A DNA stretch of 64,000 bases from Candidatus Omnitrophota bacterium (GTDB lineage Bacteria > Omnitrophota > Gorgyraeia > Zapsychrales > Zapsychraceae): positions 595 to 64,594 of the forward strand of contig JADFYJ010000006.1 of the NCBI GenBank assembly GCA_015233115.1, in the 5' to 3' direction. Below, piece after piece: positions 203-54,610 of this stretch (position 1 is its first letter; each line of letters opens with the position of its first letter). The notes under the pieces are model-generated. The model saw nothing but the letters and a program-made list of their open reading frames with translations. It had not been told where the DNA came from and did not search any database. The translations under genes and the position numbers were made by a program.

Positions 203-213
203 TATAAATTTTA

Positions 214-259
214 TTGGTTTTTGGTTAATGGTTTTTGGTTAATGGTTTTTGGGTGTTGG
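214..259. repeat. Family-C block (GGTTAATGGTTTTTG tandem)
   Basis: ttggtttttggttaatggtttttggttaatggtttttgggtgttgg. Confidence 0.75.
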
Positions 260-335
260 AAATAGAAACCAAGCTTTTTTTAAAAAACAAAAACTATCAA
301 CCATGAAATATAATTTTTTGAAACCAATTTTTTCT

Positions 336-370
336 AAAAACCATAAACCATCAACTAACAACCATAAAAT
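336..370. repeat. Family-C block (reverse: AACCATAAACCATCAACTAACAACCATAAA)
   Basis: Imperfect inverted partner of the block at 214..259. Confidence 0.7.
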
Positions 371-2128: not shown

Positions 2129-2157
2129 GGGTATAGAATGTCGTATGTAGTATATAG
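2129..2157. repeat. Family-B GTATGT-type block (forward)
   Basis: gggtatagaatgtcgtatgtagtatatag, located after the hydB stop. Confidence 0.7.
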
Positions 2158-2287
2158 AAAAAGTGAATGATGGTAAAGTGTTCATTGAAAGTTAGGTTAG
2201 GAAGAGAGCAAAGAGCTGATGAGCAAATAAAAATCATTCGTTTTTTCCAATTTTTTATTATCTATCTTTTATTTTTTGAATTTTTTA

Positions 2288-2317
2288 CTACATACCACCT
2301 ACCACATACTACATACG
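2288..2317. repeat. Family-B block (reverse, ACATAC-type)
   Basis: ctacataccacctaccacatactacatacg, located before hydA. Confidence 0.75.
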
Positions 2318-4093: not shown

Positions 4094-4233
4094 TTTGGCA
4101 ATTCACCAAGAAGGATGATATACTTTAGCTAAGAGATGTGAAAGGTAAACCACCCGTAAGGATGGGACACAAAGCTATAGGGCCCTGTACCAGAGGTAGA
4201 GGGTAGCCAGTTGCCGCGAGAAAAAAATTTGTG

Positions 4234-4268
4234 AGCCTATTCCTAGTAAAAGGGGAATAGGCTTTTTT
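4234..4268 (+). terminator. Rho-independent terminator after hydA
   Basis: Stem agcctattcc/ggaataggct followed by tttttt. Confidence 0.7.
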
Positions 4269-4278
4269 GCTAATATTG

Positions 4279-4308
4279 TTTGACAGGGGAAGGAGGTGAG
4301 AGTAAAAT
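4279..4308 (+). promoter_or_regulatory. sigma70-like promoter for the pilin operon
   Basis: TTGACA (4279-4284), an 18-nt spacer, then TAAAAT (4303-4308). It lies about 145 nt upstream of the pilA start, leaving a long leader. Confidence 0.5.
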
Positions 4309-4453: not shown

Positions 4454-4840
4454 ATGAGAAGAGGACAAAAAGGTTTTACGCTGGTGGAAATCATGATCGT
4501 TGTGGCGATTATCGCGTTATTAGCCGCGATCGCGATTCCTAACTTGCTAAGAGCCAAAGTTTCGGCTAACGAAGCTTTAGCGCAAAGCACATTAAAAACA
4601 CTATCAACGTCTATTGAAACTTATACAACAGCGAATAACGGTCTTTATCCGAACGCTGAGAACTTGTTAACGGGTGCTACACCGCCATATTTGAATACGG
4701 CTTATTGCGGTCTAAGTCTTAGCGGTTACACCTATGCTTGTACTTTGGCTACCGGGGGTTACACGATTGTGGCGACTAATAATTCAACCAGCACAGGTAC
4801 CAGAACATTCACAGTTACAACAGGAGGCATTTTACGCTAA
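4454..4840 (+). CDS. pilA: Type IV major pilin (PilA-like), class III signal peptide
   Basis: N-terminus MRRGQKGFTLVEIMIVVAIIALLAAIAIP has the prepilin G|FTLVE cleavage/methylation motif. A C-terminal Cys pair forms a D-region-like loop (CGLSLSGYTYAC). The caaggagg RBS precedes the start. Confidence 0.9.
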   Translation: MRRGQKGFTLVEIMIVVAIIALLAAIAIPNLLRAKVSANEALAQSTLKTLSTSIETYTTANNGLYPNAENLLTGATPPYLNTAYCGLSLSGYTYACTLATGGYTIVATNNSTSTGTRTFTVTTGGILR

Positions 4841-4865: not shown

Positions 4866-4893
4866 GGGGGCTTAGCAATAAGCCCCTTTTTTT
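4866..4893 (+). terminator. Rho-independent terminator/attenuator after the major pilin gene
   Basis: Stem gggggctta/taagccccc followed by ttttttt. Confidence 0.75.
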
Positions 4894-8221: not shown

Positions 8222-8318
8222 CAAAACGCGTGACAGTGTAACAATGTGACAATGAAAAAGCGGTTGGTTGGAAAGGCGCATTACTTTTTTAAATAATAAA
8301 TTAAATTTGAATTAAATA

Positions 8319-14135: not shown

Positions 14136-14137
14136 AA

Positions 14138-14172
14138 GTGACAGAGTAACCGAGTAACCGAGTAACAGAGTG
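14138..14172. repeat. Family-A tandem octamer block (GTGACAGA GTAACCGA GTAACCGA GTAACAGA)
   Basis: Directly follows the rng stop. Its inverted partner lies at 14327..14366. Confidence 0.8.
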
Positions 14173-14231
14173 AAAAGAAAAGCGATTGATGGGAAAAAAA
14201 TCTACTTTGTTTACTCTGTACTTTTTTCCTC

Positions 14232-14260
14232 TTGACGAAAAGGGATCTATTGCTTATACT
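14232..14260 (+). promoter_or_regulatory. sigma70-like promoter for rplU
   Basis: TTGACG, a 17-nt spacer, then TATACT. It lies between an inverted pair of family-A repeats. Confidence 0.5.
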
Positions 14261-14326
14261 TGGCAAACGATAAATTACGGCAAGACTAATTAGGTTCAGA
14301 GATTTTCCTATATTTTTTGTTTTTTT

Positions 14327-14366
14327 CTCTGTTACTTTGTTACTCGGTTACTTTGTCACTTAACAA
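14327..14366. repeat. Family-A block, reverse orientation (CTCTGTTACTTTGTTACTCGGTTACTTTGTCAC)
   Basis: Reverse complement of the block at 14138. It lies in the rplU 5' leader. Confidence 0.8.
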
Positions 14367-14696: not shown

Positions 14697-14767
14697 AATT
14701 TATTTTACCGGTTGATGGTTGATAGTTTTTGATTTTTGGAAGAAGCGATAGCTTCCTAAATCTTAAA

Positions 14768-14822: not shown

Positions 14823-14866
14823 AAAGTAACAGAGTAACCGAGTAACAAAGTAACAGAGCAACAGAA
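14823..14866. repeat. Family-A block (forward)
   Basis: aaagtaacagagtaaccgagtaacaaagtaacagagcaacag, located after the rplU terminator. Confidence 0.8.
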
Positions 14867-14937
14867 TAAAAAACTAATATTAAGGCTGTTACTTTGATTT
14901 TGTTTTTTACAAGTATTGTTTTTTTGTAATCTTTTTT

Positions 14938-14978
14938 TGTGCTCTGTTACTCGGTCACTTTGTTACTTTGTTACTTTA
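14938..14978. repeat. Family-A block (reverse)
   Basis: gtgctctgttactcggtcactttgttactttgttacttt, located before obg. Confidence 0.8.
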
Positions 14979-16751: not shown

Positions 16752-16756
16752 AACGT

Positions 16757-16782
16757 CGTAGGGGCGATCTCCTGATCGCCCG
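16757..16782. repeat. Family-D 26-nt palindromic element (cgtaggggcgatctcctgatcgcccg)
   Basis: It is itself a hairpin (GGGCGATC tcct GATCGCCC). A T-run lies 9 nt downstream, so it may terminate proB transcription. Confidence 0.8.
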
Positions 16783-16827
16783 CAACAATCGTTTTTAAAT
16801 AAAAATCAAAAAGCAATAATTTTGTCA

Positions 16828-16853
16828 CGGGCGATCAGGAGATCGCCCCTACG
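16828..16853. repeat. Family-D element, exact reverse complement of 16757..16782
   Basis: cgggcgatcaggagatcgcccctacg. Confidence 0.85.
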
Positions 16854-16878
16854 AACAGTGTAAATGTAGGAACATAAT

Positions 16879-18701: not shown

Positions 18702-18795
18702 AGTGATTTCAAGTCGTTGTAGAAAAGTATCGTTTTGGTTGTTTTTAAAAATACCATTATTGAATGAAAAGTCATTAATTTAAAAACGATTGATG

Positions 18796-18822
18796 CGGGC
18801 GATCGGGAGATCGCCCCTACGA
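18796..18822. repeat. Family-D element (reverse orientation)
   Basis: gcgggcgatcgggagatcgcccctacg, located after nadD. Confidence 0.8.
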
Positions 18823-18861
18823 AAGAAACGATTATTTAAAGTGTAACAATATTTTGCTGTT

Positions 18862-18886
18862 GTAGGGGAGATCTCCTGATCTCCCG
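18862..18886. repeat. Family-D element (forward orientation, slightly diverged)
   Basis: gtaggggagatctcctgatctcccg. Confidence 0.75.
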
Positions 18887-18988
18887 TTACAAAATTATCG
18901 TTTTTTTGTTTTATTTTTTAATAAATTAAACCGTTTTTTTATTTCAAAATAAACATTTTTAAAATATGAAAAATCGAAAGGTCATCAT

Positions 18989-21205: not shown

Positions 21206-24200
21206 ATGTCTCAATTTCGTTTTAGTTTTTGGACTAAATTGGTGTGTTCTTTTTTGTCAGTGATTTTTGCCTTGCAATGCGTTTATCCTTTGCAAGCCGC
21301 GAAAGCTGATGTCTTAACCCTTCCGGCTCCTGGATCAATGGTCAGCATGAGTCCGGCATTCGTTCCAACTTTATTGCGCGGCATGACTGTTCATCCTGAT
21401 AATCCGCTTCGCTTTGATTTTATTTTAGATAAGGGCGAAGCGGAGTCACAAGGTCACAAAGACACAAGGTCACAAAGGGAAATAAGAATTGAAACGGAAA
21501 AGTTGGTAAATTATTTCCTCGCGTCTATGACAGTTCCAGAAAAAGATTTATGGGTCAATCTTTCCCCGAACGAACCAAACCGGATTGTTTCCAAAGATTT
21601 AGGCAAAACTGAAATGGGCCGGGATTTGCTGGCTCAAGATTATATCCTAAAACAATTAACGGCTTCTTTAATGCAGCCGGATGGAGAAGCAGGCAGGGAA
21701 TTGTGGTCCAGAATTTATGAACGGGCTAAAAAAGAATTAAACACGACAGATATCCCTTTAGACACTTTTAACAAAGTCTGGATCCTGCCCGAAAGCGCGA
21801 CCATTTACGAACACAACAATACCGTCTATATCACAGACGCGAAATTGAAGGTTATGACAGATAGTGATTATAATACTAGTTTTAAACAAACTGTCATTCC
21901 CGCGAAAGCGGGAATCCAATTAACTTCTTTAATTAAAAAAATTATCATCCCCGAAATCGAAAAAGAAGTGAACACCGGCAAAAATTTTGCCCAGCTTCGC
22001 CAGATTTATTATTCACTCATTCTCGCCAAATGGTACAAAGACGTAGTCCGAAACAGTCTGCTTGAGAAAGTGTATATTGGAAAAAATAAAGTCGACGGCC
22101 TTGATTTAAACCCAAACCAAACACTTTCTCCGGCCAATATTTACAAACAATACATGTCCGCCTTCAAACAAGGCGTTTACAACAAAATTAAAGAAGAATA
22201 CGACCCCCAAACTCAGCAAATCATAGCCCGAAAATATTTTTCCGGCGGGTTTCAAGACACGGCCATGACCATTAAACAAGCCGACGCAGCGCAGATTACT
22301 CAGGCGCAAGAAGGCGAACAAAGTAGTGTGGCCGTCACATTAGACAACATTTCTGTAAGTCAAGAACCAGAAATAACTGAAAAAAATTTAAATGATTCTG
22401 AACGGATTATTTATAATAAAATTCAATTTCCTGTTTCTCCGGCACTTATCAGAGAAATTAAGAAGAGTAAGAAATTAGCCGAGACATTTTGTCTAATAAC
22501 TGGTATGGAGAAAAATGATTCGTTGCTGGCACAATTTTTGTTGTTTCATTTGTTTATCCGTATGTCAAAAGCAGAAGAGGGAGCTGTTGCAAATGAATTT
22601 TATTCATCGGCAGGTTTATTAAATCCATCTTATCAAGAAAGGCTGCCGGACGAATTAAGAAAAGATCCTCTTAAAGTGTTAAATGATTTTTTAACTGAAA
22701 CTGGGAGGGAAGAACTGCGTGCTAAGAATTTTGAAAATTGGGATGACTTCAAAGATTATTTGCTGAAAACTGATCAAGAGCCGTTATGGGAAATTTTTCA
22801 AGAATGGGTTGCTGCGCTGCCATATCGGAAATTTTTTGAGTTAGCGCATATTGAAAAAGCAGCGCAGTTTTTAAGTACCCGTCCGGATATGGTCCCTGAA
22901 GGTTTCCGGGAATCATTTGAAGTATTTCAAGACCGTGGAAAACCTGCGCCGATCGAAGAAATCGTGTCTGTTGTTGAAGATAATTATGGTCCTTTGGAAA
23001 ATTTATGTGAGAAGCGGCAGGATATCAAGGAAGGAGATAATCCTTATTTAAAACGGCTTAATGTGGGTACTGTCGCCGATACATTTTTGGTGACTTTAAA
23101 GAATGGTCAGCAGGAAGCTTGGAAAATCGTGGCTCCAAGCAAAGAAGCAAAGATTCGTCAAGGTCTTGAAACGCTGCGGGAAGTTATGGGTGAACTCGAA
23201 AAAAACAAAGTTTTTTTTGCCGGCAATGAAACTATCCGGTTATCCCCTGTAAGATTTTTTAAGGAATTTGAAAAAGCAGTGCTCAGAGAACTGGATATGA
23301 ATACTGAAGCAAAGCAGGCACGCGATATGATCCCTCATTTTCCAAAAGGGTTTGCTAAACCTGAAATTAGAGAAAGTAAAAAGCAGATCCTTCGCATGGG
23401 TTTTATCAATGGAACTAAAATAACTTTAGTTACGGACACTGAAATTAGAAAACGCCTAGCGAAAAAGATATTGCCTTTAATTGGTTTACAGGCGTTAGGA
23501 GATGAAATTTTTCATGCGGATCCCCACCCGGGAAATATTTTTTATATTGAAGAAACCGGTGAGATTGTTCTTTTTGATTTTGGTCAGGTGGGGTATTTGA
23601 CGAAGTCCGTGCGAAGGGATTTGGTAAATTTGGCGGTTCAAATTTTACAGCATAGAGAGCAGCGCGGTTTACATCAGGTCATGTACCATGCTATAGGGAA
23701 AATTTTACAATCCAAAATTGCTGCGAAAATGGCAAGATGGGGTTTATTTAATTATTATTGGTATCAAGAGCAAAAAAATCAGAAGAGACCCCAATCTAGC
23801 CCGGATTCAATCCGAAAAACAGAAAATCGACAGAAAGATCACGAATCTGAAATATCATTTGAATCCACCTTGGACTTTGATGATGTGCTTAAAAAAATGG
23901 TTGAAACGACACCCCTTAATATTGATGAAATTTTGGATTTTCTTGAGTTAAAAGGGATACAGAATACAGGATATAACCGTGACAGTTTACACGCAAAAAT
24001 ATCTGAAATCCTCACATCAAAAAGTATTCAAGGGTGGAAAGAGCAACAGCCTTATATTATGGTTGACCGCCTTGTGTATGAAGCAGAAGCTCTTGGGTTG
24101 ATTATTCAGACGCCATATTCTTCCATCATATCGCATATAATGACGTTTGCTCATAAATATGCAGATATGGACGACAATATTGAAGCGGATGAGATCGGAT

Positions 24201-25441
24201 TTAAAACCGAAGTCTCTTCAATTCTGAGATTCCGAAGGGAAGGCGAAAGCATTTTTCCTGTTGTACACCGCATCTTTTTAGCCGCAGACCGGTTTGGATA
24301 TCCGATATTGTCATCTGCCTCAATGCTGATCAAATCCTTACTTTTAGCCGAAGGCGTCCAACGGACGCTGAAACAAAATTTGGAAGGCAGGAATGATTCA
24401 AACGATTCAGCCATGACCATCAAACACGCCGACGCCGCGCAGATAACCCGTGCACAAGTAGGCGAACAAAGTCGAGGCAAAGTTACATTGTCTGATCATG
24501 CGATGCAACAAATTATTTTACCGGATTACGCTGGCAATTTAGACCCATTAGCCTTAGGTGAAAAGCCTAGGAAAGTGATTGAATTAATGCGGAAGGGGCT
24601 CAATGTTCCGAAATTTTTTGTCATAAAATCTAATGGGACGGGAAAACTGGAAATTACAGATGAATTAAGGCGGGTTTTTGATTCTTTTAAAAAACCGGTT
24701 ATTGTCCGCAGTGCGCATCCTATGGAAGGCGGCGAACATCCCTTTCCTGGTATATTTAACAGTTACTCAGCAGTCAGTTATTTGGCTTTCGAAGATATTC
24801 CTGATGGTATACGGCCTGATGCCGAGGGCAAATGGGATAAAGATCCATTAAGCGTTGATTGGGCATATGAAGATATGGTGGAAACAGCATCACCAGATTG
24901 GAATGATAAATTAGATAAATATTTGAAAGCCAATGCTATTAAAGATTTTGATCCAAAAGCAATGGATGCGGTTTTGATGGAACAAGTTGACGTGGAAGTG
25001 TTTGGTATGTTTTTTACAGAAAGCCAAATCCATCCTAATAAAATTGAGATTCGTTATATTATCCCAGACACAAATGATGGCGGAATTATATTGTTTGATA
25101 AAACAACTCAATCACTCGAAGAAAATTCTTTACCACAACGTATCCAGGAAGTTCTTACGGAATTTGGAAAAACTGCGCAAAAGATTCATGACATATATGG
25201 TTTTCAACAAATTGAGTTAGCGTCTTCTAAAATTGATAAAAAGGTTTATGTTTTTCAATCCAGAAATTTTCCTATTGGCGATCCAAACAACGTGGCTCGT
25301 TATCCTGAATATCAAACCATCATGACGCCTAATGCGGTACTTGGTTATGGTGATTATAATCTGCCGGTTATAGTTTTAGATGGGTTAGATAGTGTCACAA
25401 AATATAAGGAAGATCCAAAATATCGAGCCTTGAGTGAATAA
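21206..25441 (+). CDS. Giant multidomain protein: signal peptide/anchor + unknown N-domain + UbiB/ABC1-type atypical kinase domain + PPDK_N/PEP-utilising-enzyme ATP-grasp-like domain; internal repeats
   Basis: N-terminus MSQFRFSFWTKLVCSFLSVIFALQCVYPLQAAKA is signal-like. The ABC1/UbiB hallmarks LSTRPDMVP, AWKIVAP (Lys), HADPHPGNIFY and DFG are present. At the C-terminus, ...NVPKFFVIKSNG... and KPVIVRSAHPMEGGEHPFPGIFNSYSAV resemble PPDK_N VAVRSSAxxEDxxxxSFAGQ. The motif SAMTIK[QH]ADAAQIT appears twice. Confidence 0.6.
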   Translation: MSQFRFSFWTKLVCSFLSVIFALQCVYPLQAAKADVLTLPAPGSMVSMSPAFVPTLLRGMTVHPDNPLRFDFILDKGEAESQGHKDTRSQREIRIETEKLVNYFLASMTVPEKDLWVNLSPNEPNRIVSKDLGKTEMGRDLLAQDYILKQLTASLMQPDGEAGRELWSRIYERAKKELNTTDIPLDTFNKVWILPESATIYEHNNTVYITDAKLKVMTDSDYNTSFKQTVIPAKAGIQLTSLIKKIIIPEIEKEVNTGKNFAQLRQIYYSLILAKWYKDVVRNSLLEKVYIGKNKVDGLDLNPNQTLSPANIYKQYMSAFKQGVYNKIKEEYDPQTQQIIARKYFSGGFQDTAMTIKQADAAQITQAQEGEQSSVAVTLDNISVSQEPEITEKNLNDSERIIYNKIQFPVSPALIREIKKSKKLAETFCLITGMEKNDSLLAQFLLFHLFIRMSKAEEGAVANEFYSSAGLLNPSYQERLPDELRKDPLKVLNDFLTETGREELRAKNFENWDDFKDYLLKTDQEPLWEIFQEWVAALPYRKFFELAHIEKAAQFLSTRPDMVPEGFRESFEVFQDRGKPAPIEEIVSVVEDNYGPLENLCEKRQDIKEGDNPYLKRLNVGTVADTFLVTLKNGQQEAWKIVAPSKEAKIRQGLETLREVMGELEKNKVFFAGNETIRLSPVRFFKEFEKAVLRELDMNTEAKQARDMIPHFPKGFAKPEIRESKKQILRMGFINGTKITLVTDTEIRKRLAKKILPLIGLQALGDEIFHADPHPGNIFYIEETGEIVLFDFGQVGYLTKSVRRDLVNLAVQILQHREQRGLHQVMYHAIGKILQSKIAAKMARWGLFNYYWYQEQKNQKRPQSSPDSIRKTENRQKDHESEISFESTLDFDDVLKKMVETTPLNIDEILDFLELKGIQNTGYNRDSLHAKISEILTSKSIQGWKEQQPYIMVDRLVYEAEALGLIIQTPYSSIISHIMTFAHKYADMDDNIEADEIGFKTEVSSILRFRREGESIFPVVHRIFLAADRFGYPILSSASMLIKSLLLAEGVQRTLKQNLEGRNDSNDSAMTIKHADAAQITRAQVGEQSRGKVTLSDHAMQQIILPDYAGNLDPLALGEKPRKVIELMRKGLNVPKFFVIKSNGTGKLEITDELRRVFDSFKKPVIVRSAHPMEGGEHPFPGIFNSYSAVSYLAFEDIPDGIRPDAEGKWDKDPLSVDWAYEDMVETASPDWNDKLDKYLKANAIKDFDPKAMDAVLMEQVDVEVFGMFFTESQIHPNKIEIRYIIPDTNDGGIILFDKTTQSLEENSLPQRIQEVLTEFGKTAQKIHDIYGFQQIELASSKIDKKVYVFQSRNFPIGDPNNVARYPEYQTIMTPNAVLGYGDYNLPVIVLDGLDSVTKYKEDPKYRALSE

Positions 25442-28714: not shown

Positions 28715-28744
28715 TTGACAAATCAAACAATTTTGCCATAATAT
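28715..28744 (+). promoter_or_regulatory. sigma70-like promoter for rpsA
   Basis: TTGACA (28715-28720), a 17-nt spacer, then ATAATA/TAATAT. Confidence 0.5.
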
Positions 28745-30347: not shown

Positions 30348-30350
30348 AGA

Positions 30351-30383
30351 TAGTATGTAGTATGTGGTATGTCGTATGTAGTG
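30351..30383. repeat. Family-B block (forward)
   Basis: tagtatgtagtatgtggtatgtcgtatgtagtg, located after the rpsA stop. Confidence 0.8.
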
Positions 30384-30579
30384 AAAAAGCAATTGATTGT
30401 GAAATAATAAATATATTAGAGCAAATATAGATAAAAAGCGTTGTGTGAAACGTATAGAAATTTTAGTCTGTTTAAAATATTTTTAAAAAATTTTGATTTC
30501 TATTTTTATTTATATTTAGGCTTTACGATATAACTAAGTATTACTTCATTTTGCTTGTTTTTTAAAAATTTTATTTTTA

Positions 30580-30610
30580 CGACATACCACATACGACATA
30601 CTACATACTA
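30580..30610. repeat. Family-B block (reverse)
   Basis: cgacataccacatacgacatactacatact. It ends 8 nt before the tyrS ATG. Confidence 0.8.
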
Positions 30611-30618
30611 TTTATTTT

Positions 30619-31791
30619 ATGTCATCCATTAAACAAATTATCACCGACCTTTCCCGCGGCACGACCGAGATTATTAATACGGAGTTGCTCGAGGCGAAAT
30701 TGCGGAGAAGTCAGGAAACCGGCAAACCTTTGCATATTAAAGCGGGGTTTGATCCGACGGCGCCGGATATCCATTTAGGGCATTCAGTTTTACTGCGCAA
30801 GATGCGCCAGTTTCAGGAATTAGGGCATAAAGTTTTCTTTTTGATTGGGGATTTTACGGCTTTAATCGGAGATCCGACGGGAAAAAATCAGTTGCGTCCG
30901 CGTTTGGAACCCGCGTTTATTGAAGAAAACGCGAAAACCTATGCGAAGCAGGTATTCAAGATCCTGGATCCTAAAAAAACTGAAGTGGTTTTTAATAGTC
31001 ATTGGCTGGGAAAAATGACGCCGCAGGATTTAGTGGCTTTAACCGCGCAATCAACAGTCGCGCAGATGTTAGTGAGATCGGATTTTAAAAAGCGTTTTGA
31101 TGCCGGGCGAGAGATCAGTGTGTTGGAGTTTATTTATCCTTTGTTGCAAGGGTATGACTCAGTGGCGATGAAAGCGGATGTTGAGCTGGGAGGGAGCGAT
31201 CAGAAATTTAATTTGTTGATGGGACGGCAGATTCAGCAGGCTTACGGCCAGGAACCGCAGGTCGTGATGATGACCCCGCTTTTGGAAGGTTTGGACGGCG
31301 AAAATAAAATGAGCAAGTCGCTCAATAATTACGTCGGGATCAATGAACAGCCTTCAGAAATTTTCGGTAAGATTATGTCTATCAGCGATGAGCTGATGTT
31401 TAAATACGCGGAATGTTTGACGAGTCTCAACTTGGATGAGTTGCATCAGATGCATCCGAAAGAAGCCAAAATGAAATTGGCTGAGACGATTGTAGTACAG
31501 TATTATGACGCACACGCTGGCCAGGCCGCCCGGGAAGCATTTGAGCGGGTTTTTGCCAAAGGAGAGAATCCAGAGGATATGACGGAATTCTCATTGGCTC
31601 AAGCAAAGACTGGTTTATCATTGGCGGAATTACTGGTGGATCTGAAATTGGTCGGGTCTCGGAATGAGGTCCGCCGCCTAATGCAGCAGGGCGGGATCAG
31701 TGTTAATAATGAAAAGATCACCGATGAAAAATGGCCGCTTCGTCCCGGAATCATCAAGGTCGGAAAACGCCGTTTTCTTAAAATTTCATAG
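30619..31791 (+). CDS. tyrS: Tyrosyl-tRNA synthetase
   Basis: Class I HIGH motif variant (PDIHLGH) and KMSKS. A C-terminal S4-like domain is present. Confidence 0.85.
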   Translation: MSSIKQIITDLSRGTTEIINTELLEAKLRRSQETGKPLHIKAGFDPTAPDIHLGHSVLLRKMRQFQELGHKVFFLIGDFTALIGDPTGKNQLRPRLEPAFIEENAKTYAKQVFKILDPKKTEVVFNSHWLGKMTPQDLVALTAQSTVAQMLVRSDFKKRFDAGREISVLEFIYPLLQGYDSVAMKADVELGGSDQKFNLLMGRQIQQAYGQEPQVVMMTPLLEGLDGENKMSKSLNNYVGINEQPSEIFGKIMSISDELMFKYAECLTSLNLDELHQMHPKEAKMKLAETIVVQYYDAHAGQAAREAFERVFAKGENPEDMTEFSLAQAKTGLSLAELLVDLKLVGSRNEVRRLMQQGGISVNNEKITDEKWPLRPGIIKVGKRRFLKIS

Positions 31792-31815: not shown

Positions 31816-31843
31816 TTGACAAATAAAATTTTTTGTATATACT
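31816..31843 (+). promoter_or_regulatory. sigma70-like promoter upstream of tRNA-Thr/rpmG/tRNA-Trp/secE/nusG
   Basis: TTGACA (31816-31821), a 16-nt spacer, then TATACT (31838-31843). Confidence 0.5.
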
Positions 31844-35030: not shown

Positions 35031-35068
35031 TTGATGGTTGTTGGTTGATGGTTGTTAGTTTTGGTTAA
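35031..35068. repeat. Family-C block (forward)
   Basis: ttgatggttgttggttgatggttgttagttttggttaa, located after the rplL stop. Confidence 0.75.
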
Positions 35069-35100
35069 AGCATTGGAGTTGTTTAAAATAAGCGCTTTTT

Positions 35101-35130
35101 CCAAAAACTATAAACTTCCAACTAAAACCC
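35101..35130. repeat. Family-C block (reverse)
   Basis: ccaaaaactataaacttccaactaaaaccc, located before rpoB. Confidence 0.65.
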
Positions 35131-43778: not shown

Positions 43779-45872
43779 ATGGCTAAGACACCACTTATAG
43801 ATTATCGTAACATTGGGATCATTGCCCATATCGACGCGGGTAAAACCACGACGACTGAGCGTATTTTGTATTACACCGGCGTTATCCATAAAATGGGTAA
43901 TATCGATGATGGTAATACCGCTATGGATTGGATGGAGCAGGAACAAGAGCGCGGGATCACGATTACCTCGGCGAGTACCGTTTGTTTTTGGAAAGGCAAG
44001 CAGATCAATCTGATCGATACTCCCGGACACGTTGATTTTACGATGGAAGTCGAGCGTTCATTAAAAGTTTTGGACGGAGCGGTTGTGGTTTTGTGCGGAA
44101 CCAGCGGTGTTCAACCTCAAACCGAAACTGTCTGGCGTCAAGCTGACCGCTATAGTGTTCCCCGTATTTTATTCGTTAATAAATTAGACCGTTTAGGTGC
44201 GAATTTTGAGCGCGTTATTGATGAGAGTCACGAACGCTTAGGCGCAAATTCTGCCGCGATTCAGCTTCCGGATGGCCACGAAGACCAATTTCATGGCATT
44301 ATTGATATTATTGAAGAAAAATATTACGTATATAAAGATGATGCGGGCGAAGACATTGATACTTTACCTGTTCCGGAAAAATTTAAAGCTAAAGTCGCTG
44401 AGATGAGGCACAAATTGCTGGAACGTTTGTCAGACGCTGATGATATGATTATGGAGAGATTTTTAGAAGAAAAACCGGTAACGGTTGAAGAAATCAAGAG
44501 TGCTATCCGCCGCGGTGTTATTGCTTGTACGTTTGTCCCAGTTCTTTGCGGTACCGCATTGCGCAATAAAGGAGTTCAATTTGTTTTAGATGCTGTGACT
44601 GAATATTTACCTTCTCCGTTAGATATTCCTCCGGTTAAAGGAATTAATCCTTCTTCTAAAGAAGAAGAACTTCGTGCTCCAGATCCTGCCGCTCCTTTTT
44701 CAGGATTAGTTTTCAAAATTGCCACAGATCCTTACGTTGGTAAATTATTTTATACTCGTATTTATTCCGGAACAGTTAATTCTGGAGATTCAGTTTGGAA
44801 CGCGTCTGAGGGATGTAAAGAACGTATTTCTAAAATGGTTTTGATGCACGCCAACCGTCAGGAAATTGTTCCTTCTGTATCAGCCGGAGATATTATCGCT
44901 TTGGTAGGTTTAAAAGATAGCAAAACCGGAACCTCTTTGTGCGATCAAACTAAGAAAATTTTACTTGAGAATATGCGTATTCCTGAACCGGTTGTTTCCA
45001 TGTCGATTGAGCCAAAAACTAAAGCTGACTCAGACCGCATGGGTATGGTATTAAAGAAATTTCTCGATGAAGATCCTTCCTTACGTTGCACCTATAATCA
45101 TGAAACCGCTCAAAGTATTATTTCTGGTATGGGCGAGCTTCATTTGGAAATTATCATTGATCGTATGAAACGCGAATTTAATTTGGAGACGAGTGTAGGC
45201 CGTCCTGAAGTTGCTTATAAAGAGACTGTCCAGCGTAAAGTAACGGGTGTAGTGGGTAAACACATTGCCCAATCTGGCGGACGCGGTCAATATGGTCACT
45301 GTGTTATTGATATTGAACCTCAGGAAGTCAGAGGAACTGGTTATCAATTCGTTGATATGATTAAAGGTGGCGCGATTCCTCGTGAATTTATTAAATGCGT
45401 TGATGAAGGTTTACGCATGGGTTTGACTAGCGGTATTTTAGCCGGATACCCGGTTGTGGATATAAAAGTTACTCTTGTGGATGGTTCTTATCACGATGTT
45501 GACTCTAATGAGCTGGCTTTTCAGTTAGCCGCCAAAAACGCACTTAAAGATGCTTTAGCAAAAGCTGGTTCTATTTTCCTTGAGCCGATTATGGATATCG
45601 AAGTGGTAGCTCCGGAAGAATACATGAGCTCCGCGATCGGCGACTTGAATCAGCGCCGTGCTAAAATTTTAAGTTTAGGTCAACGCGGCCATTTGAAAGT
45701 GACCCGATGCGAGGTTCCTCTTTCAGAGATGTTTAATTACGTGAATGCATTACGTTCGTTATCACAAGGACGCGCGACATATACGATGGAACCAAAGTTT
45801 TACGATGTTGTTCCAAAATTCATAGCTGATAAAATTATCGGCGAAAGAACAGCGTCTGGACATAAAAGATAG
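43779..45872 (+). CDS. fusA: Elongation factor G
   Basis: [16 protein letters not shown]1 motif. It is 697 aa. Confidence 0.97.
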
Positions 45873-45904
45873 TGACAGAGTAACCGAGTAACCGAGTAAC
45901 CGAG
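45872..45904. repeat. Family-A block (forward)
   Basis: agtgacagagtaaccgagtaaccgagtaaccgag. It starts at the fusA stop codon. Confidence 0.8.
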
Positions 45905-46095
45905 AAAAAGCGGTTGGTGAAAAGCGAATGGTGAAAGCGTTGGCGTATAAAAAGTGATTAGGTTTTAAAAAATATATTATTTGATTAAAATTAAAGTTTG
46001 GTTTTTTTTGTTTATGTTTGGTAATTATTATTCGATTTGTTGTTTTGTTCTTTGGTAAAATAATTTTTTTGTTGTTAGTTATTTGTTATTTTTTT

Positions 46096-46130
46096 ACTTT
46101 GTTACTCGGTTACATGGTTACTTTGTTACT
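46096..46130. repeat. Family-A block (reverse)
   Basis: ctttgttactcggttacatggttactttgttact, in the tuf leader. Confidence 0.8.
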
Positions 46131-46163
46131 AATATTTTTTCCAAATAAAAAGGAGGCAGTCAC

Positions 46164-52237: not shown

Positions 52238-52503
52238 GCGAGACGCAAGCACGAGAAAATAGACGTAAGGTGTTTCAAGGAATCGTCGTCAGCGACAAAA
52301 TGAACAAGACTCGCGTGGTGCAGGTGGCGTTCTCACAAAAACATGATCAGTACAACAAGGTCATGAAAAAGCACAGCAAATTTAAGGCGCATGACGAGAA
52401 AAACGAAACAAAGACTGGTGACCAGGTTAAAATCATGGAAACGCGCCCGTTATCAAAAGATAAACGCTGGATTATTAAAGAAGTTTTTAAAACGAAGCAA
52501 TAA
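52234..52503 (+). CDS. rpsQ: 30S ribosomal protein S17
   Basis: 89 aa, follows rpmC and overlaps its stop. Confidence 0.9.
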
Positions 52504-52508
52504 TAAAG

Positions 52509-52590
52509 GTAGTATGTAGTGCGTAGTATGTCGTATGTAGAAAAAGAAAAATAATAAAAGCTGTATGTCGTGCGCAGTATTAAGTATGTA
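52509..52590. repeat. Family-B blocks (forward, two copies)
   Basis: gtagtatgtagtgcgtagtatgtcgtatgtag and a degenerate copy ctgtatgtcgtgcgcagtattaagtatgta, located after the rpsQ stop. Confidence 0.75.
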
Positions 52591-52610
52591 AAAAAGATAC
52601 GTTTTTAAAA

Positions 52611-52640
52611 CCACATACCACATACCACATACCACATACT
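52611..52640. repeat. Family-B block (reverse)
   Basis: ccacataccacataccacataccacatact, located before rplN. Confidence 0.8.
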
Positions 52641-52656
52641 CTACAAAAGGTTACTT

Positions 52657-53025
52657 ATGATTTTATTAAAATCCATTTTAGTTGTCGCGGATAACACCGG
52701 CGCTCGTAAGGCTTCGATGATCGGCGTGTTAAATGCCAAGAATCGCAGGACGGCGGGGATTGGTGATACGATCCGGGTTAATATTAAGGAATCATCGCCG
52801 GATGCGGCGGTGAAAAAAGGGCAAAAGGCCAAAGGCATTGTGGTCAGGACCAAATCTGCGATTCACCGTGCGGATGGGACGTATGTCCGTTTTGATACCA
52901 ACGCCGTGGTTTTAATTGATGATGCAGGTAACCCAAAAGGTACCCGCGTTTTCGGACCAGTGGCGCGTGAATTGCGAAATTTAGATTATATGAAAATCGT
53001 TTCTTTAGCTCCAGAGGTAATTTAA
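52657..53025 (+). CDS. rplN: 50S ribosomal protein L14
   Basis: [18 protein letters not shown]. Confidence 0.95.
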
Positions 53026-54117: not shown

Positions 54118-54513
54118 ATGTCATTAAGTGATCCGATTAGTAATTTTTTAACAAATGTCCGAAACGCCATCAAAGTCCGTAAAGAAACGGTTGATGTTCC
54201 TGCGTCAAAATTAGTGGGAAAAATCCTTGAAATATTCAAGGCGGATGGCTACATCGAAGATTTCCGTTTGATGAAGGATAATGTGCAGGGCACATACAAG
54301 ATTTATTTGAAATATCAGGGAAAAGCTTCCGCCATTACTGGGTTGAAGCGTATTTCAAAACCAGGTTTAAGAGTTTATGTTCAACGAGACGAAATTCCAA
54401 AAGTATTGAACGGTTTAGGTACGGCAGTCATTTCAACGTCCAAAGGCGTGGTGACCAACCGTGAAGCTAAAAAGTTAAGTGCCGGCGGAGAAGTCTTATG
54501 TTACATTTGGTAG
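54118..54513 (+). CDS. rpsH: 30S ribosomal protein S8
   Basis: MSLSDPISNFLTNVRNA. Confidence 0.95.
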   Translation: MSLSDPISNFLTNVRNAIKVRKETVDVPASKLVGKILEIFKADGYIEDFRLMKDNVQGTYKIYLKYQGKASAITGLKRISKPGLRVYVQRDEIPKVLNGLGTAVISTSKGVVTNREAKKLSAGGEVLCYIW

Positions 54514-54610
54514 GCCGTTCGCGGGAGCTCACGGCACTACTTCGGACATTTCGTCCTCGGTCGGCCGTTCGCAGGAGCTCACGGCACTACTTCGGACATT
54601 GCGTCCTCGG
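54513..54610. repeat. Direct tandem repeat, 2 x 48 nt (period 50) between rpsH and rplF
   Basis: ggccgttcgc[g/a]ggagctcacggcactacttcggacatt[t/g]cgtcctcgg x2. It begins at the last base of the rpsH stop codon. Confidence 0.9.

What the first reader, a model, noticed from the sequence alone, without database searches (positions are those of the whole stretch)
2129..2317. Family-B (GTATGT)n / (ACATAC)n inverted brackets between hydB and hydA, recurring at rpsA-tyrS and at the S10/spc operon junction
Blocks of 5-6 imperfect GTATGT hexamers in one orientation are followed 100-200 nt later by blocks in the opposite orientation. They enclose very AT-rich DNA in every case.

Three loci carry them:
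- 2129-2157 and 2288-2317, between hydB and hydA.
- 30351-30383 and 30580-30610, between rpsA and tyrS.
- 52509-52590 and 52611-52640, between rpsQ and rplN. This is exactly where E. coli separates the S10 operon from the spc operon and its promoter.

The reverse arm abuts the start codon of tyrS, 8 nt upstream with no SD. At hydA it overlaps the spurious 5' extension of the ORF. The alternating purine-pyrimidine TG/CA character could also adopt non-B DNA.
Basis: seen in the sequence. Interest (0 to 1): 0.6.

Follow-up and report, generated by a model that had tools for sequence, protein, structure and literature searches.

The report
Heptamer-repeat hairpin elements between operon genes
The GTATGT/ACATAC "brackets" are real: they are three of at least eight gene-less copies of a dispersed hairpin element, inserted between co-transcribed genes of an uncultured Omnitrophota bacterium, with the same repeat-built arms that enclose a small "23S rRNA intervening-sequence protein" gene in many other bacteria.

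Summary
**Observation:** confirmed. The unit is a heptamer (NGTATGT), not a hexamer. Two adjacent units occur 15 times against 0.07 expected, and only at the three named loci.

**Architecture:** each pair of arms folds into a 22-47 bp stem. The stem starts 0-10 nt after the upstream stop codon and ends 8-34 nt before the next start. Five more brackets in the window share this build with other 7/8-nt units. Arms are 85-92% alike between copies; loops are unrelated.

**Relatives:** Omnitrophota relatives lack the brackets. Their rpsQ and rplN overlap or lie 9 nt apart, and rpsA-tyrS is 4-78 nt.

**Link to IVP genes:** in an unbiased metagenome sample, 38 of 63 PF05635 (23S-rRNA IVS protein) genes sit inside the same kind of inverted 7/8-mer arrays, with the same geometry.

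**Best reading (0.5):** gene-less, IVS-like intercistronic elements whose stem is probably cut by RNase III in the polycistronic mRNA. Cleavage is inferred, not shown. Stem mismatches show no G·U excess, so RNA-level selection is unproven.

**Rejected:** the promoter/operon-boundary and Z-DNA readings are not supported.

**Prior work:** inverted heptamer arrays are already described in Xanthomonas, so this is a new member of a known but unexplained kind.

The parts
2129..2157 (+). B1 forward arm: about 4 degenerate NGTATGT units, starting 1 nt after the hydB stop codon
2158..2285 (+). B1 loop, AT-rich and non-coding. It holds the motif GAAAAAGTGAATGATG (2157-2172) and an inverted copy of it (2232-2247).
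2286..2317 (+). B1 reverse arm (ACATACN)x4.4. It ends 33 nt before the hydA ATG at 2351, and the Shine-Dalgarno AAGGAG lies between them.
30350..30383 (+). B2 forward arm (NGTATGT)x4.6 plus the start of the A-run. It begins 3 nt after the rpsA stop codon.
30384..30577 (+). B2 loop, about 190 nt, very AT-rich. It contains no ORF and no IVP remnant.
30578..30611 (+). B2 reverse arm (ACATACN)x4.4, ending 8 nt before the tyrS ATG at 30619
52509..52540 (+). B3 forward arm, starting 5 nt after the rpsQ stop codon
52563..52590 (+). B3 second, degenerate copy of the forward arm (51-nt tandem duplication spanning 52499-52597)
52610..52640 (+). B3 reverse arm (CCACATA)x4.3, 100% regular, ending 16 nt before the rplN ATG at 52657
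14136..14361 (+). A1 bracket of octamers, (GAGTAACN)n / (NGTTACTC)n, between the RNase G gene and rplU. The stem is 46 nt with 39 Watson-Crick pairs; folding gives dG -88.7 kcal/mol.
14823..14977 (+). A2 bracket between rplU and obg
45866..46131 (+). A3 bracket between fusA and tuf. The forward arm overlaps the fusA stop codon.
211..368 (+). C1 bracket, (TTGGTTN / TTAATGGTTTTTGG)n / (AAACCAT)n, between the 2Fe-2S ferredoxin gene and hydB
35031..35128 (+). C2 bracket, (TTGTTGG/TGATGGT)n and its complement, between rplL and rpoB
8229..8269 (+). Family-A-like forward array with the GAAAAAGCGGTTGG motif but without a recognisable reverse partner (half-site)

Best explanation
**What they are.** The three GTATGT brackets belong to a dispersed family of gene-less stem-loop elements. 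The window holds at least 8 copies in three arm families.

**Where they sit.** They have been added at operon-internal junctions of this Omnitrophota genome. Each fills the gap between the stop codon of one gene and the ribosome-binding region of the next.

**Their ends.** The termini are inverted arrays of 7- or 8-nt units, with the G/T-rich array 5' of the loop.

**What they resemble.** They are the ORF-less form of a bracket that, in many phyla, encloses a PF05635 '23S rRNA intervening-sequence protein' (four-helix-bundle) gene at exactly the same kind of position.

**Inferred mechanism.**
1. The element is transcribed as part of the polycistronic mRNA.
2. The arms anneal into a 22-47 bp duplex that loops out the AT-rich interior.
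3. The duplex is a substrate for RNase III, as shown for the heptamer-containing 28-bp stem of the Coxiella 23S rRNA IVS.
4. The insertion is thereby removed or neutralised at the RNA level and the flanking cistrons are separated.

**Shown:** architecture, dispersal, lineage-specific insertion, and the association with IVP brackets.

**Inferred:** transcription through the element, RNase III cleavage, and any benefit to the host.
For: 1. **Real, non-random arrays and stems.** 15 hits against 0.07 expected. RNA folds close the whole spacer, with z = -9.2 (B2), -3.0 (B1) and -3.3 (B3) against dinucleotide shuffles. All 8 brackets fold this way. Stems are 22-47 columns with 240/302 Watson-Crick pairs.
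2. **Arms conserved, loops not.** B2-B3 forward arms match 35/39, B1-B2 reverse arms 33/37, A1-A3 forward arms 37/40 (z 5-13). Loops score z -1.2 to 1.4.
3. **Insertions at coupled junctions.**
   - rpsQ/rplN overlap by 4 nt or lie 9 nt apart in 7 relatives.
   - rpsA-tyrS is 4-78 nt in relatives. The two gaps flanking rplU are 99 and 9 nt in a relative, against 252 and 310 nt here.
   - hydB-hydA is 11 or 65 nt in two relatives.
4. **No strong promoters inside B brackets**. This is consistent with read-through transcription.
5. **The same GTATGT arrays enclose a PF05635 gene** in L016 (E = 9e-38, between rny and ymdB), L081, L082, L090 and L104. Other units do the same in L017, L078 and L068.
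6. **Unbiased sample.**
   - 38 of 63 metagenomic IVP genes have flanking arms above the 99th percentile of a mismatched-locus null. Almost all have period 7 or 8.
   - Median stem length is 36 bp.
   - The upstream arm starts a median of -2 nt from the upstream stop codon. The downstream arm ends a median of 24 nt before the next start.
   - IVP genes are co-oriented with their neighbours in 57/62 and 51/59 cases.
   - L154 and L163 arms resemble window families A and C.
7. **Literature.** The Coxiella IVS stem (28 bp) carries 2-3 tandem heptamers, is cut there by RNase III in vitro, and holds an S23p ORF (PMC4990558).
Against: - No transcript or cleavage data exist for this organism.
- Stem mismatches show no excess of G·U over A·C: 21 vs 13 in the window, 75 vs 75 in the IVP brackets. 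Selection on RNA pairing is therefore not demonstrated, and a DNA-level copying or homogenising process would fit equally well.
- No IVP gene or remnant is present in the window (best E = 0.72, outside the brackets). The link to IVP elements rests on architecture and shared units, not on homology of the interior.
- None of 40 IVP loci tested lies in 23S rRNA. The experimentally studied IVSs are therefore atypical relatives.
- A1 contains a 10/12 promoter-like site, so some loops may carry host signals.
- Two arrays lack a partner (8229-8254 and 14712-14740).
- An rnc gene could not be checked in this MAG.
Confidence: 0.5

Rival explanations
1. Neutral by-product of DNA metabolism. Heptamer simple-sequence repeats arise by polymerase slippage in non-coding DNA. 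Inverted pairs are created and kept complementary by intrastrand template switching (quasi-palindrome correction). They have no function, and RNA processing is irrelevant.
For: - Heptamers are reported as the most over-represented long SSR class in prokaryotes, attributed to slippage (Mrazek 2007, as summarised in PMC4679880).
- G·U and A·C mismatches are equally frequent in stems, as expected without selection on RNA.
- Units are extremely diverse between loci.
- The B3 forward arm shows a tandem duplication.
Against: - Slippage alone does not explain why copies at different loci share the same order of variant units plus the adjacent A-run/T-run and the GAAAAAGCGRTTGRTG motif.
- It does not explain why arms abut stop codons and stop about 24 nt before start codons in both data sets.
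- It does not explain why 60% of IVP genes are enclosed.
- It does not explain why the G-rich array is 5' of the loop in about 60 of 64 brackets.
Confidence: 0.2
2. A DNA transposon of the MITE type. The arrays are terminal inverted repeats recognised by a transposase encoded elsewhere. The RNA hairpin is incidental.
For: - Copies are dispersed with conserved ends and variable interior.
- Presence is lineage-specific.
- In one orthologous pair of metagenome loci, the IVP gene plus its arms is 98% identical while the flanks are about 81%. This suggests the element is younger than the host divergence.
Against: - No target-site duplication is visible at any of the window brackets.
- No transposase was seen next to any bracket.
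- Interiors of copies are unrelated rather than diverged.
- Termini built of tandem 7-mers with variable copy number are not typical of bacterial MITEs (own knowledge).
- Placement exactly between stop and start codons would need strong post-insertion filtering.
Confidence: 0.15
3. The arrays are paired protein-binding or non-B-DNA 'brackets' that insulate or regulate promoters at operon boundaries (for example S10/spc).
For: - Loops are AT-rich.
- A1 holds a TTGACG-17-TATACT site.
- GTATGT alternates purine and pyrimidine.
Against: - Relatives have rpsQ and rplN overlapping or 9 nt apart, so there is no boundary there.
- There is no plus-strand promoter-like site in B1 or B3, and only a 9/12 match in B2. 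Strong sites lie outside the brackets.
- hydB-hydA and ferredoxin-hydB are junctions inside one hydrogenase operon.
- Families A and C do not alternate purine and pyrimidine.
Confidence: 0.07
4. Unusually large transcription terminators or attenuators that set the expression ratio between neighbouring genes.
For: - Relatives have an ordinary hairpin plus T-run at rpsA-tyrS.
- E. coli has an attenuator and an RNase III site between rplL and rpoB (own knowledge), where bracket C2 sits.
- B2 is followed by TATTTATTTT.
Against: - Loops of 45-195 nt and AU-rich stems are unlike intrinsic terminators.
- A T-run after the 3' arm is absent in B1, B3 and A1.
- Canonical GC-stem terminators exist elsewhere in the window (4233-4264, 4866-4887), so the organism uses the normal type.
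Confidence: 0.08

Closest known systems
Inverted pairs of heptameric simple-sequence repeats in Xanthomonas (GGGAATC)n, and the Nostoc GGGGA(C/T)T repeats (Rehm et al. 2015, PMC4692102)
   Same: - Tandem heptamers, mostly about 4 units.
- 89-93% are intergenic and lie very close to the upstream stop codon (mean 28 nt).
- 70-75 cases per genome occur as two arrays in convergent orientation that can form a stem-loop.
- Mostly between co-directional genes; the majority are transcribed; function unknown.
   Different: - The units there are G-rich and were studied as G-quadruplex formers. GTATGT has no G-runs.
- No link to IVP/S23p genes was drawn in that paper.
- The host phylum differs.
- In the window several unit families, including an octamer, coexist in one genome.
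23S rRNA intervening sequences (IVS) of Coxiella, Leptospira and Salmonella (Warrier et al. 2016, PMC4990558, and works cited there)
   Same: - An insertion bordered by complementary termini that form a stem of about 28 bp.
- The Coxiella stem region contains 2-3 tandem heptamers (GACAGAT) whose number varies between strains.
- RNase III cuts within the stem.
- Some carry an S23p/PF05635 ORF and some (Salmonella) do not.
- Regarded as selfish elements.
   Different: - IVSs sit in helix 25 or 45 of 23S rRNA. The window elements sit between protein-coding genes, and 0 of 40 bracketed or unbracketed IVP loci sampled were in rRNA.
- The window copies have no ORF.
- Cleavage has not been tested.
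TAACTGA heptamer direct repeats of marine Beggiatoaceae, cyanobacteria and Bacteroidetes (MacGregor 2015, PMC4679880), and the cyanobacterial heptamer repeats of Calothrix cited in PMC4692102
   Same: - Intergenic tandem heptamers, often ending a few nt before a start codon that lacks a Shine-Dalgarno sequence.
- Present in ribosomal-protein operons.
- Close relatives have shorter spacers without repeats.
   Different: - Almost all are unpaired direct arrays: 169 direct sets against 1 inverted.
- They were proposed to be sites for a translational regulator.
- No stem is predicted.
MITEs and REP/REPIN elements
   Same: Short, dispersed, non-coding, hairpin-forming intergenic repeats. The window also holds true REP-like GC-rich palindrome doublets (16756-16854 and 18795-18885).
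   Different: - The brackets have no target-site duplication and no conserved interior.
- Their arms are AT-rich and made of tandem 7/8-mers.
- No RAYT or transposase association was seen.

Membership tests
Inverted heptameric SSR pairs (Xanthomonas type, PMC4692102) | Tandem repeats of a 7-nt unit, at least 2 units and typically about 4 | tested here: met
   Period 7 with 4.3-4.6 copies in B arms
Inverted heptameric SSR pairs (Xanthomonas type, PMC4692102) | Two arrays in convergent orientation close together, in an intergenic region next to the upstream stop codon | tested here: met
   Arms start 1-5 nt after the stop codons; partners lie 70-195 nt away
Inverted heptameric SSR pairs (Xanthomonas type, PMC4692102) | G-tract unit able to form a G-quadruplex | tested here: not met
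   NGTATGT has no GGG run. This feature defines the studied subfamily, not the arrangement.
23S rRNA intervening sequence (IVS) | Located within helix 25 or 45 of the 23S rRNA gene | tested here: not met
   The elements lie between protein-coding genes. Rfam finds no rRNA in the window.
23S rRNA intervening sequence (IVS) | Complementary termini forming a stem of at least 20 bp that encloses the element | tested here: met
   Stems of 30-47 columns; z = -3 to -9
23S rRNA intervening sequence (IVS) | Excision by RNase III | not testable with these tools
   Needs an in vitro assay or end mapping. Shown only for Coxiella and others in the literature.
23S rRNA intervening sequence (IVS) | Optional S23p / PF05635 ORF inside | tested here: not met
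   An HMM built from 80 IVP sequences finds nothing in the window (best E = 0.72). The ORF is present in brackets with the same units elsewhere.
MITE | Terminal inverted repeats plus target-site duplication, with a conserved interior among copies | tested here: not met
   Inverted ends are present. No flanking direct repeat was seen, and the loops are unrelated.
REP / REPIN | GC-rich imperfect palindrome of 20-40 nt, often in inverted doublets | tested here: not met
   The arms are AT-rich tandem arrays. Genuine REP-like palindromes are a separate class in this window.
Intrinsic terminator | Short GC-rich stem, small loop, followed by a U-tract | tested here: not met
   None of the terminator-scan hits coincides with a bracket. 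Loops are 45-195 nt.
Any Rfam family | Match at gathering score | tested here: not met
   Only 2 tRNAs and a c-di-GMP-I riboswitch were found in the window.

The most novel reading that the evidence does not exclude
**Proposed class.** Inverted 7/8-mer arrays, with or without a PF05635 gene, form one phylum-spanning and so far undescribed class of intercistronic cassette.

**Its properties.**
- It lodges exactly between the stop codon and the start region of co-transcribed genes.
- Its termini are kept alike between copies while its interior is free to change.
- It is made harmless at the RNA level, either by RNase III excision or by re-initiation across the base of the stem.

**Consequences if true.** The classical 23S rRNA IVSs would be the rare rRNA-borne special case of this class. 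The Xanthomonas and cyanobacterial inverted heptamer arrays would be its ORF-less majority.

**Possible origin.** In about 60 of 64 brackets the G-rich array is 5' of the loop, an arrangement that reads the same on both strands. Stems also show no G·U excess. Both facts would fit an origin by templated addition of the same short repeat to both 3' ends of a break.
Probability: 0.3. Interest if true: 0.8.

Novelty: new member of a known kind. Interest (0 to 1): 0.55.

Why it matters
Heptamer arrays are the most over-represented long simple repeats in bacteria and have had no accepted explanation since they were first described in cyanobacteria around 1990. PF05635 four-helix-bundle proteins are among the commonest bacterial proteins of unknown function.

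The work here ties the two together. It shows that the arrays come as stems placed precisely between cistrons, and that about 60% of sampled IVP genes sit inside such stems. It also links both to the only experimentally studied case, RNase III-processed rRNA intervening sequences.

That turns an old descriptive observation into testable questions in cultured organisms such as Xanthomonas, Flavobacterium and Coxiella:
- Does RNase III excise these elements from mRNAs?
- Do they alter the stoichiometry of operon products? In this window that means ribosomal proteins, EF-Tu, RNA polymerase and hydrogenase.
- How do they spread?

For annotation, the brackets explain long "empty" spacers and spurious 5' ORF extensions in Omnitrophota MAGs.

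Tried and rejected
- **Exact-protein look-ups failed.** Look-ups of window TyrS and L14 found no contig. The MAG (protein MBF0478688.1) is not in the gene-position index. A genome-wide inventory and a strain comparison for this organism were therefore impossible.
- **Genome scan hit its row limit.** The scan for (GTATGTN)3 stopped at 115 stretches without returning the window's own genome.
- **L071 is a different genome.** This Omnitrophota MAG from a similar accession series has 33% GC and none of the window's families.
- **Rfam found nothing at the brackets**.
- **No IVP remnants in the loops**.
- **Strand test was uninformative.** G·U versus A·C mismatches gave 21:13 and 75:75.
- **Polarity argument withdrawn.** I first read "G-rich arm first" as polarity relative to transcription. 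An inverted repeat has the same polarity on both strands, so I withdrew that argument.
- **First IVP alignment was too divergent.** The alignment of 9 sequences could not be used for the locus scan; a 3-sequence alignment worked.
- **A script timed out.** My first shuffle script ran past its limit.
- **Loops do not align.** No homology was found between loops of different copies.
- **Literature.** Searches found no paper linking IVP genes in general to inverted heptamer arrays. The library holds open-access papers only, so prior description cannot be excluded.
Full report
**1. The observation**

The window (42.2% GC, all genes on the + strand) carries the described blocks at 2129-2157/2286-2317, 30350-30383/30578-30611 and 52509-52540 (plus a degenerate second copy at 52563-52590)/52610-52640. 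The repeat unit is a heptamer, NGTATGT, and its complement ACATACN. TRF reports period 7 with 4.3-4.6 copies.

Two adjacent units with at most one mismatch occur 15 times, only at these three loci. Dinucleotide-preserving shuffles give 0.07 on average and never more than 2.

The arms are complementary. For B2, 45 nt pair at 84% and a 26-nt core pairs at 96%. Gapless alignments give 27/37, 39/47 and 24/30 Watson-Crick columns for B1, B2 and B3. In each case pairing continues from the arrays into an A-run after the forward arm and a T-run before the reverse arm.

As RNA, each spacer folds into one long hairpin closed by the arms:

| Bracket | dG (kcal/mol) | z against 200 dinucleotide shuffles |
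|---|---|---|
| B2 | -79.1 | -9.2 |
| B1 | -44.2 | -3.0 |
| B3 | -31.8 | -3.3 |

**2. The B brackets are part of a wider architecture in this genome**

Five further spacers have the same build with other units:
- Octamer family A, (GAGTAACN)n / (NGTTACTC)n, at 14136-14361, 14823-14977 and 45866-46131.
- Heptamer family C, (TTGGTTN)n and its complement, at 211-368 and 35031-35128.
- Two arrays without a partner, at 8229-8254 and 14712-14740.

All eight brackets fold as a single hairpin. Stems span 22-47 columns, with 240 of 302 columns Watson-Crick.

Every bracket starts 0-10 nt after a stop codon; in A3 the forward arm overlaps the stop codon. Every bracket but C2 ends 8-34 nt before the next start, leaving only the ribosome-binding region; C2 ends about 70 nt before the rpoB start.

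The junctions are operon-internal ones: ferredoxin-hydB-hydA, RNase G-rplU-obg, rpsA-tyrS, rplL-rpoB, fusA-tuf and rpsQ-rplN.

Copies of one family share their ends in detail, including the order of variant units. B2-B3 forward arms match 35/39, B1-B2 reverse arms 33/37, and A1-A3 forward arms 37/40 (z = 5-13). The loops are no more alike than shuffled sequence (z -1.2 to 1.4).

A motif, GAAAAAGCGRTTGRTG, follows the forward arm in both A and B copies.

**3. Organism and orthologous junctions**

TyrS, L14 and HydA are 100% identical to proteins of a 'Candidatus Omnitrophica bacterium' MAG on a 149,334-bp contig (accession MBF0478688.1). The nearest relatives are distant: 66-68% identity for TyrS, 83-86% for L14 and 77-78% for HydA.

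| Junction | In relatives | In the window |
|---|---|---|
| rpsA-tyrS | 72, 4 and 78 nt; two of the three hold an ordinary GC hairpin plus T-run | 271 nt |
| RNase G-rplU and rplU-obg | 99 and 9 nt | 252 and 310 nt |
| rpsQ-rplN | overlap by 4 nt in three relatives, 9 nt apart in four | 153 nt |
| hydB-hydA | 11 and 65 nt in two relatives; 342-563 nt of GC-rich palindromic repeats in a third lineage, with length differing between samples | 223 nt |

The brackets are therefore lineage-specific additions to junctions that are otherwise tight or translationally coupled. The same junctions can be colonised by other hairpin repeats elsewhere.

**4. Promoters and terminators**

Strong sigma-70-like sites (11/12) lie outside the brackets, at 28715 before rpsA, at 31816 before the tRNA-rpmG cluster, and at 4280. 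No plus-strand site lies inside B1 or B3. B2 has one 9/12 match that overlaps the arm. Only A1 has a 10/12 site.

No terminator-like hit coincides with a bracket. Ordinary GC-stem terminators exist elsewhere in the window.

The idea that B3 marks an S10/spc boundary with its promoter is therefore not supported. Rfam has nothing at the brackets.

**5. The same thing elsewhere**

The hits came from Omnitrophota (at least 5 MAGs), Planctomycetota (Sedimentisphaerales, Pirellulales, Scalindua), Bacteroidota, Patescibacteria/Peregrinibacteria and others.

A strict TRF-plus-complement test detected 21 further inverted array pairs in those loci. They were almost always of period 7, with loops of 3-465 nt.

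All four pairs with loops of about 400 nt enclose a gene of Pfam PF05635, '23S rRNA-intervening sequence protein' (IVP, a four-helix bundle). For L016 the match has E = 9e-38, and the element lies between rny and ymdB. More IVP genes flanked by arrays were found in L081, L090 (two), L104, L068, L046 and L078.

**6. An unbiased test of the association**

Eighty metagenomic loci were chosen only for encoding an IVP. Sixty-three of them had at least 160 nt on both sides.
- In 38 (60%), the upstream and downstream flanks are complementary beyond the 99th percentile of a null made by pairing flanks from different loci. Scores reach 48, against a null mean of 8.9 and a 99th percentile of 17.
- Nearly all of these arms are tandem arrays of period 7, with some of period 8. 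Many sub-threshold cases are shorter arrays of the same kind.
- The units differ from locus to locus, but the two arms of a locus match each other.
- Some units resemble window families A (L154) and C (L163).
- Median stem length is 36 bp (range 22-89) with 82% Watson-Crick columns.
- The upstream arm begins a median of 2 nt before the end of the upstream stop codon. The downstream arm ends a median of 24 nt before the next start. This is the same geometry as in the window.
- IVP genes are co-oriented with their upstream neighbour in 57/62 loci and with their downstream neighbour in 51/59.
- None of 40 loci tested is inside an rRNA gene.
- The window itself has no IVP gene or remnant. Its brackets are therefore ORF-less versions.

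**7. What is known**

- *Rehm et al. 2015 (PMC4692102).* They described about 185 GGGAATC heptamer arrays per Xanthomonas genome, mostly of 4 units. Of these, 89-93% are intergenic and lie on average 28 nt from the upstream ORF. In 70-75 cases two arrays lie in convergent orientation and can form a stem-loop. Most are transcribed and their function is unknown.
- *MacGregor 2015 (PMC4679880).* She described unpaired TAACTGA heptamer arrays just upstream of start codons. She also summarised Mrazek's finding that heptamers are the commonest long SSR class.
- *Warrier et al. 2016 (PMC4990558).* The Coxiella 23S rRNA IVS has a 28-bp terminal stem and an S23p (PF05635 family) ORF. It carries 2-3 tandem GACAGAT heptamers whose number varies between strains. 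RNase III cuts in that stem in vitro.

I found no paper that connects IVP genes in general with inverted heptamer arrays. The library is limited to open-access text.

**8. Interpretation**

The best-supported reading is that the B brackets are gene-less copies of an IVS-like intercistronic element. Its conserved parts are its repeat-built, mutually complementary ends.

A 26-47 bp duplex in a polycistronic mRNA is a textbook RNase III substrate. This rests on established knowledge of RNase III and on the IVS experiments cited. I therefore infer that read-through transcripts are cut in the stem, which removes the loop and separates the cistrons.

This step is inference only. Two results caution against over-reading it:
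- Stem mismatches show no excess of G·U over A·C (21:13 in the window, 75:75 in the IVP set). There is thus no signature of selection on RNA pairing. The complementarity could instead be maintained by a DNA-level copying process.
- The regular placement of the G/T-rich array 5' of the loop (8/8 window, 36/38 IVP, 16/18 other) is identical on both strands of an inverted repeat. It says nothing about the direction of transcription. It may reflect selection against ATG/GTG/SD-like strings just before start codons, or the way the arms are made.

The rivals are set out separately with their evidence: neutral slippage plus quasi-palindrome correction, MITE-like DNA transposition, promoter insulation or non-B DNA, and giant terminators.

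One hint of mobility comes from an orthologous pair of metagenome loci. The IVP gene plus its arms is 98% identical, while the 1.9-kb alignment as a whole is 85.8% identical, which implies about 81% in the flanks.

**9. Verdict**

The finding is real and statistically solid. Its functional suggestions (operon boundary, promoter, Z-DNA) are not supported.

The arrangement itself has been described before in Xanthomonas, so this is a new member of a known but unexplained kind. The quantitative link to PF05635 genes and the stop-to-start geometry appear to be new and are testable.

Noticed in passing
window 4134-4218 (+): c-di-GMP-I riboswitch (RF01051, 58.7 bits). It follows a TTGGCA-18-TATACT promoter-like site at 4095 and lies upstream of a type-IV-pilin-like gene (4454-4840, N_methyl motif).
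   Followed up: partly
window 16756-16788 / 16822-16854 and 18795-18822 / 18858-18885: GC-rich REP-like palindromes (GGGGCGATCTCCTGATCGCCCCTACGA) occur as inverted doublets around AT-rich DNA. They resemble REPINs and are a different class from the heptamer brackets.
   Followed up: no
window 54509-54610: A GC-rich 50-nt unit is repeated twice (94% match), filling the rpsH-rplF spacer (152 nt). In a relative (L202) that spacer is 6 nt. This is another lineage-specific insertion in the spc cluster.
   Followed up: partly
window 2157, 8254, 14176, 30383, 45904 (and inverted at 2232-2247): The motif GAAAAAGCGRTTGRTG lies directly after the forward arms of both family A and family B brackets. There are 23 hits with up to 3 mismatches against 4.3 expected. 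A similar AAAAACGATTGATG / ATCGTTTTTT pair flanks the REP-like doublet at 18780-18905. This suggests nested or modular ends.
   Followed up: partly
L209-L211, positions about 2040-2600 (hydB-hydA spacer of a related Omnitrophota lineage): The HydA protein is identical in three samples, but the spacer is 563, 434 and 342 nt. It is made of GC-rich palindromes and a tandem unit of about 105 nt. Two of the three contain scaffold Ns, so part of the length variation may come from assembly.
   Followed up: partly
L148 and L156, 1380-1929: In these orthologous metagenome loci the IVP gene plus both arms is 98% identical. The whole 1.9-kb alignment is 85.8% identical, which puts the flanks at about 81%. 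The element looks younger than, or converted between, the hosts.
   Followed up: partly
L093 2930-3300 (Flavobacterium MAG): Three different heptamer families are nested in one spacer: AAATTCC with its complement TTTGGAA, and ACAACAT. The spacer looks like elements inserted within elements.
   Followed up: no
window 21445-21477: A 16-nt unit (GTCACAAGGTCACAAAGA-like) is repeated about twice, in frame, inside the 1411-aa ORF 21206-25441. It resembles family A units but is coding and unpaired.
   Followed up: no
window 45906-45936: Inside the A3 loop a 14-nt unit (AAAAGCGAATGGTG) is repeated 2.2 times. It extends the shared post-arm motif into a second tier of tandem repeats.
   Followed up: no
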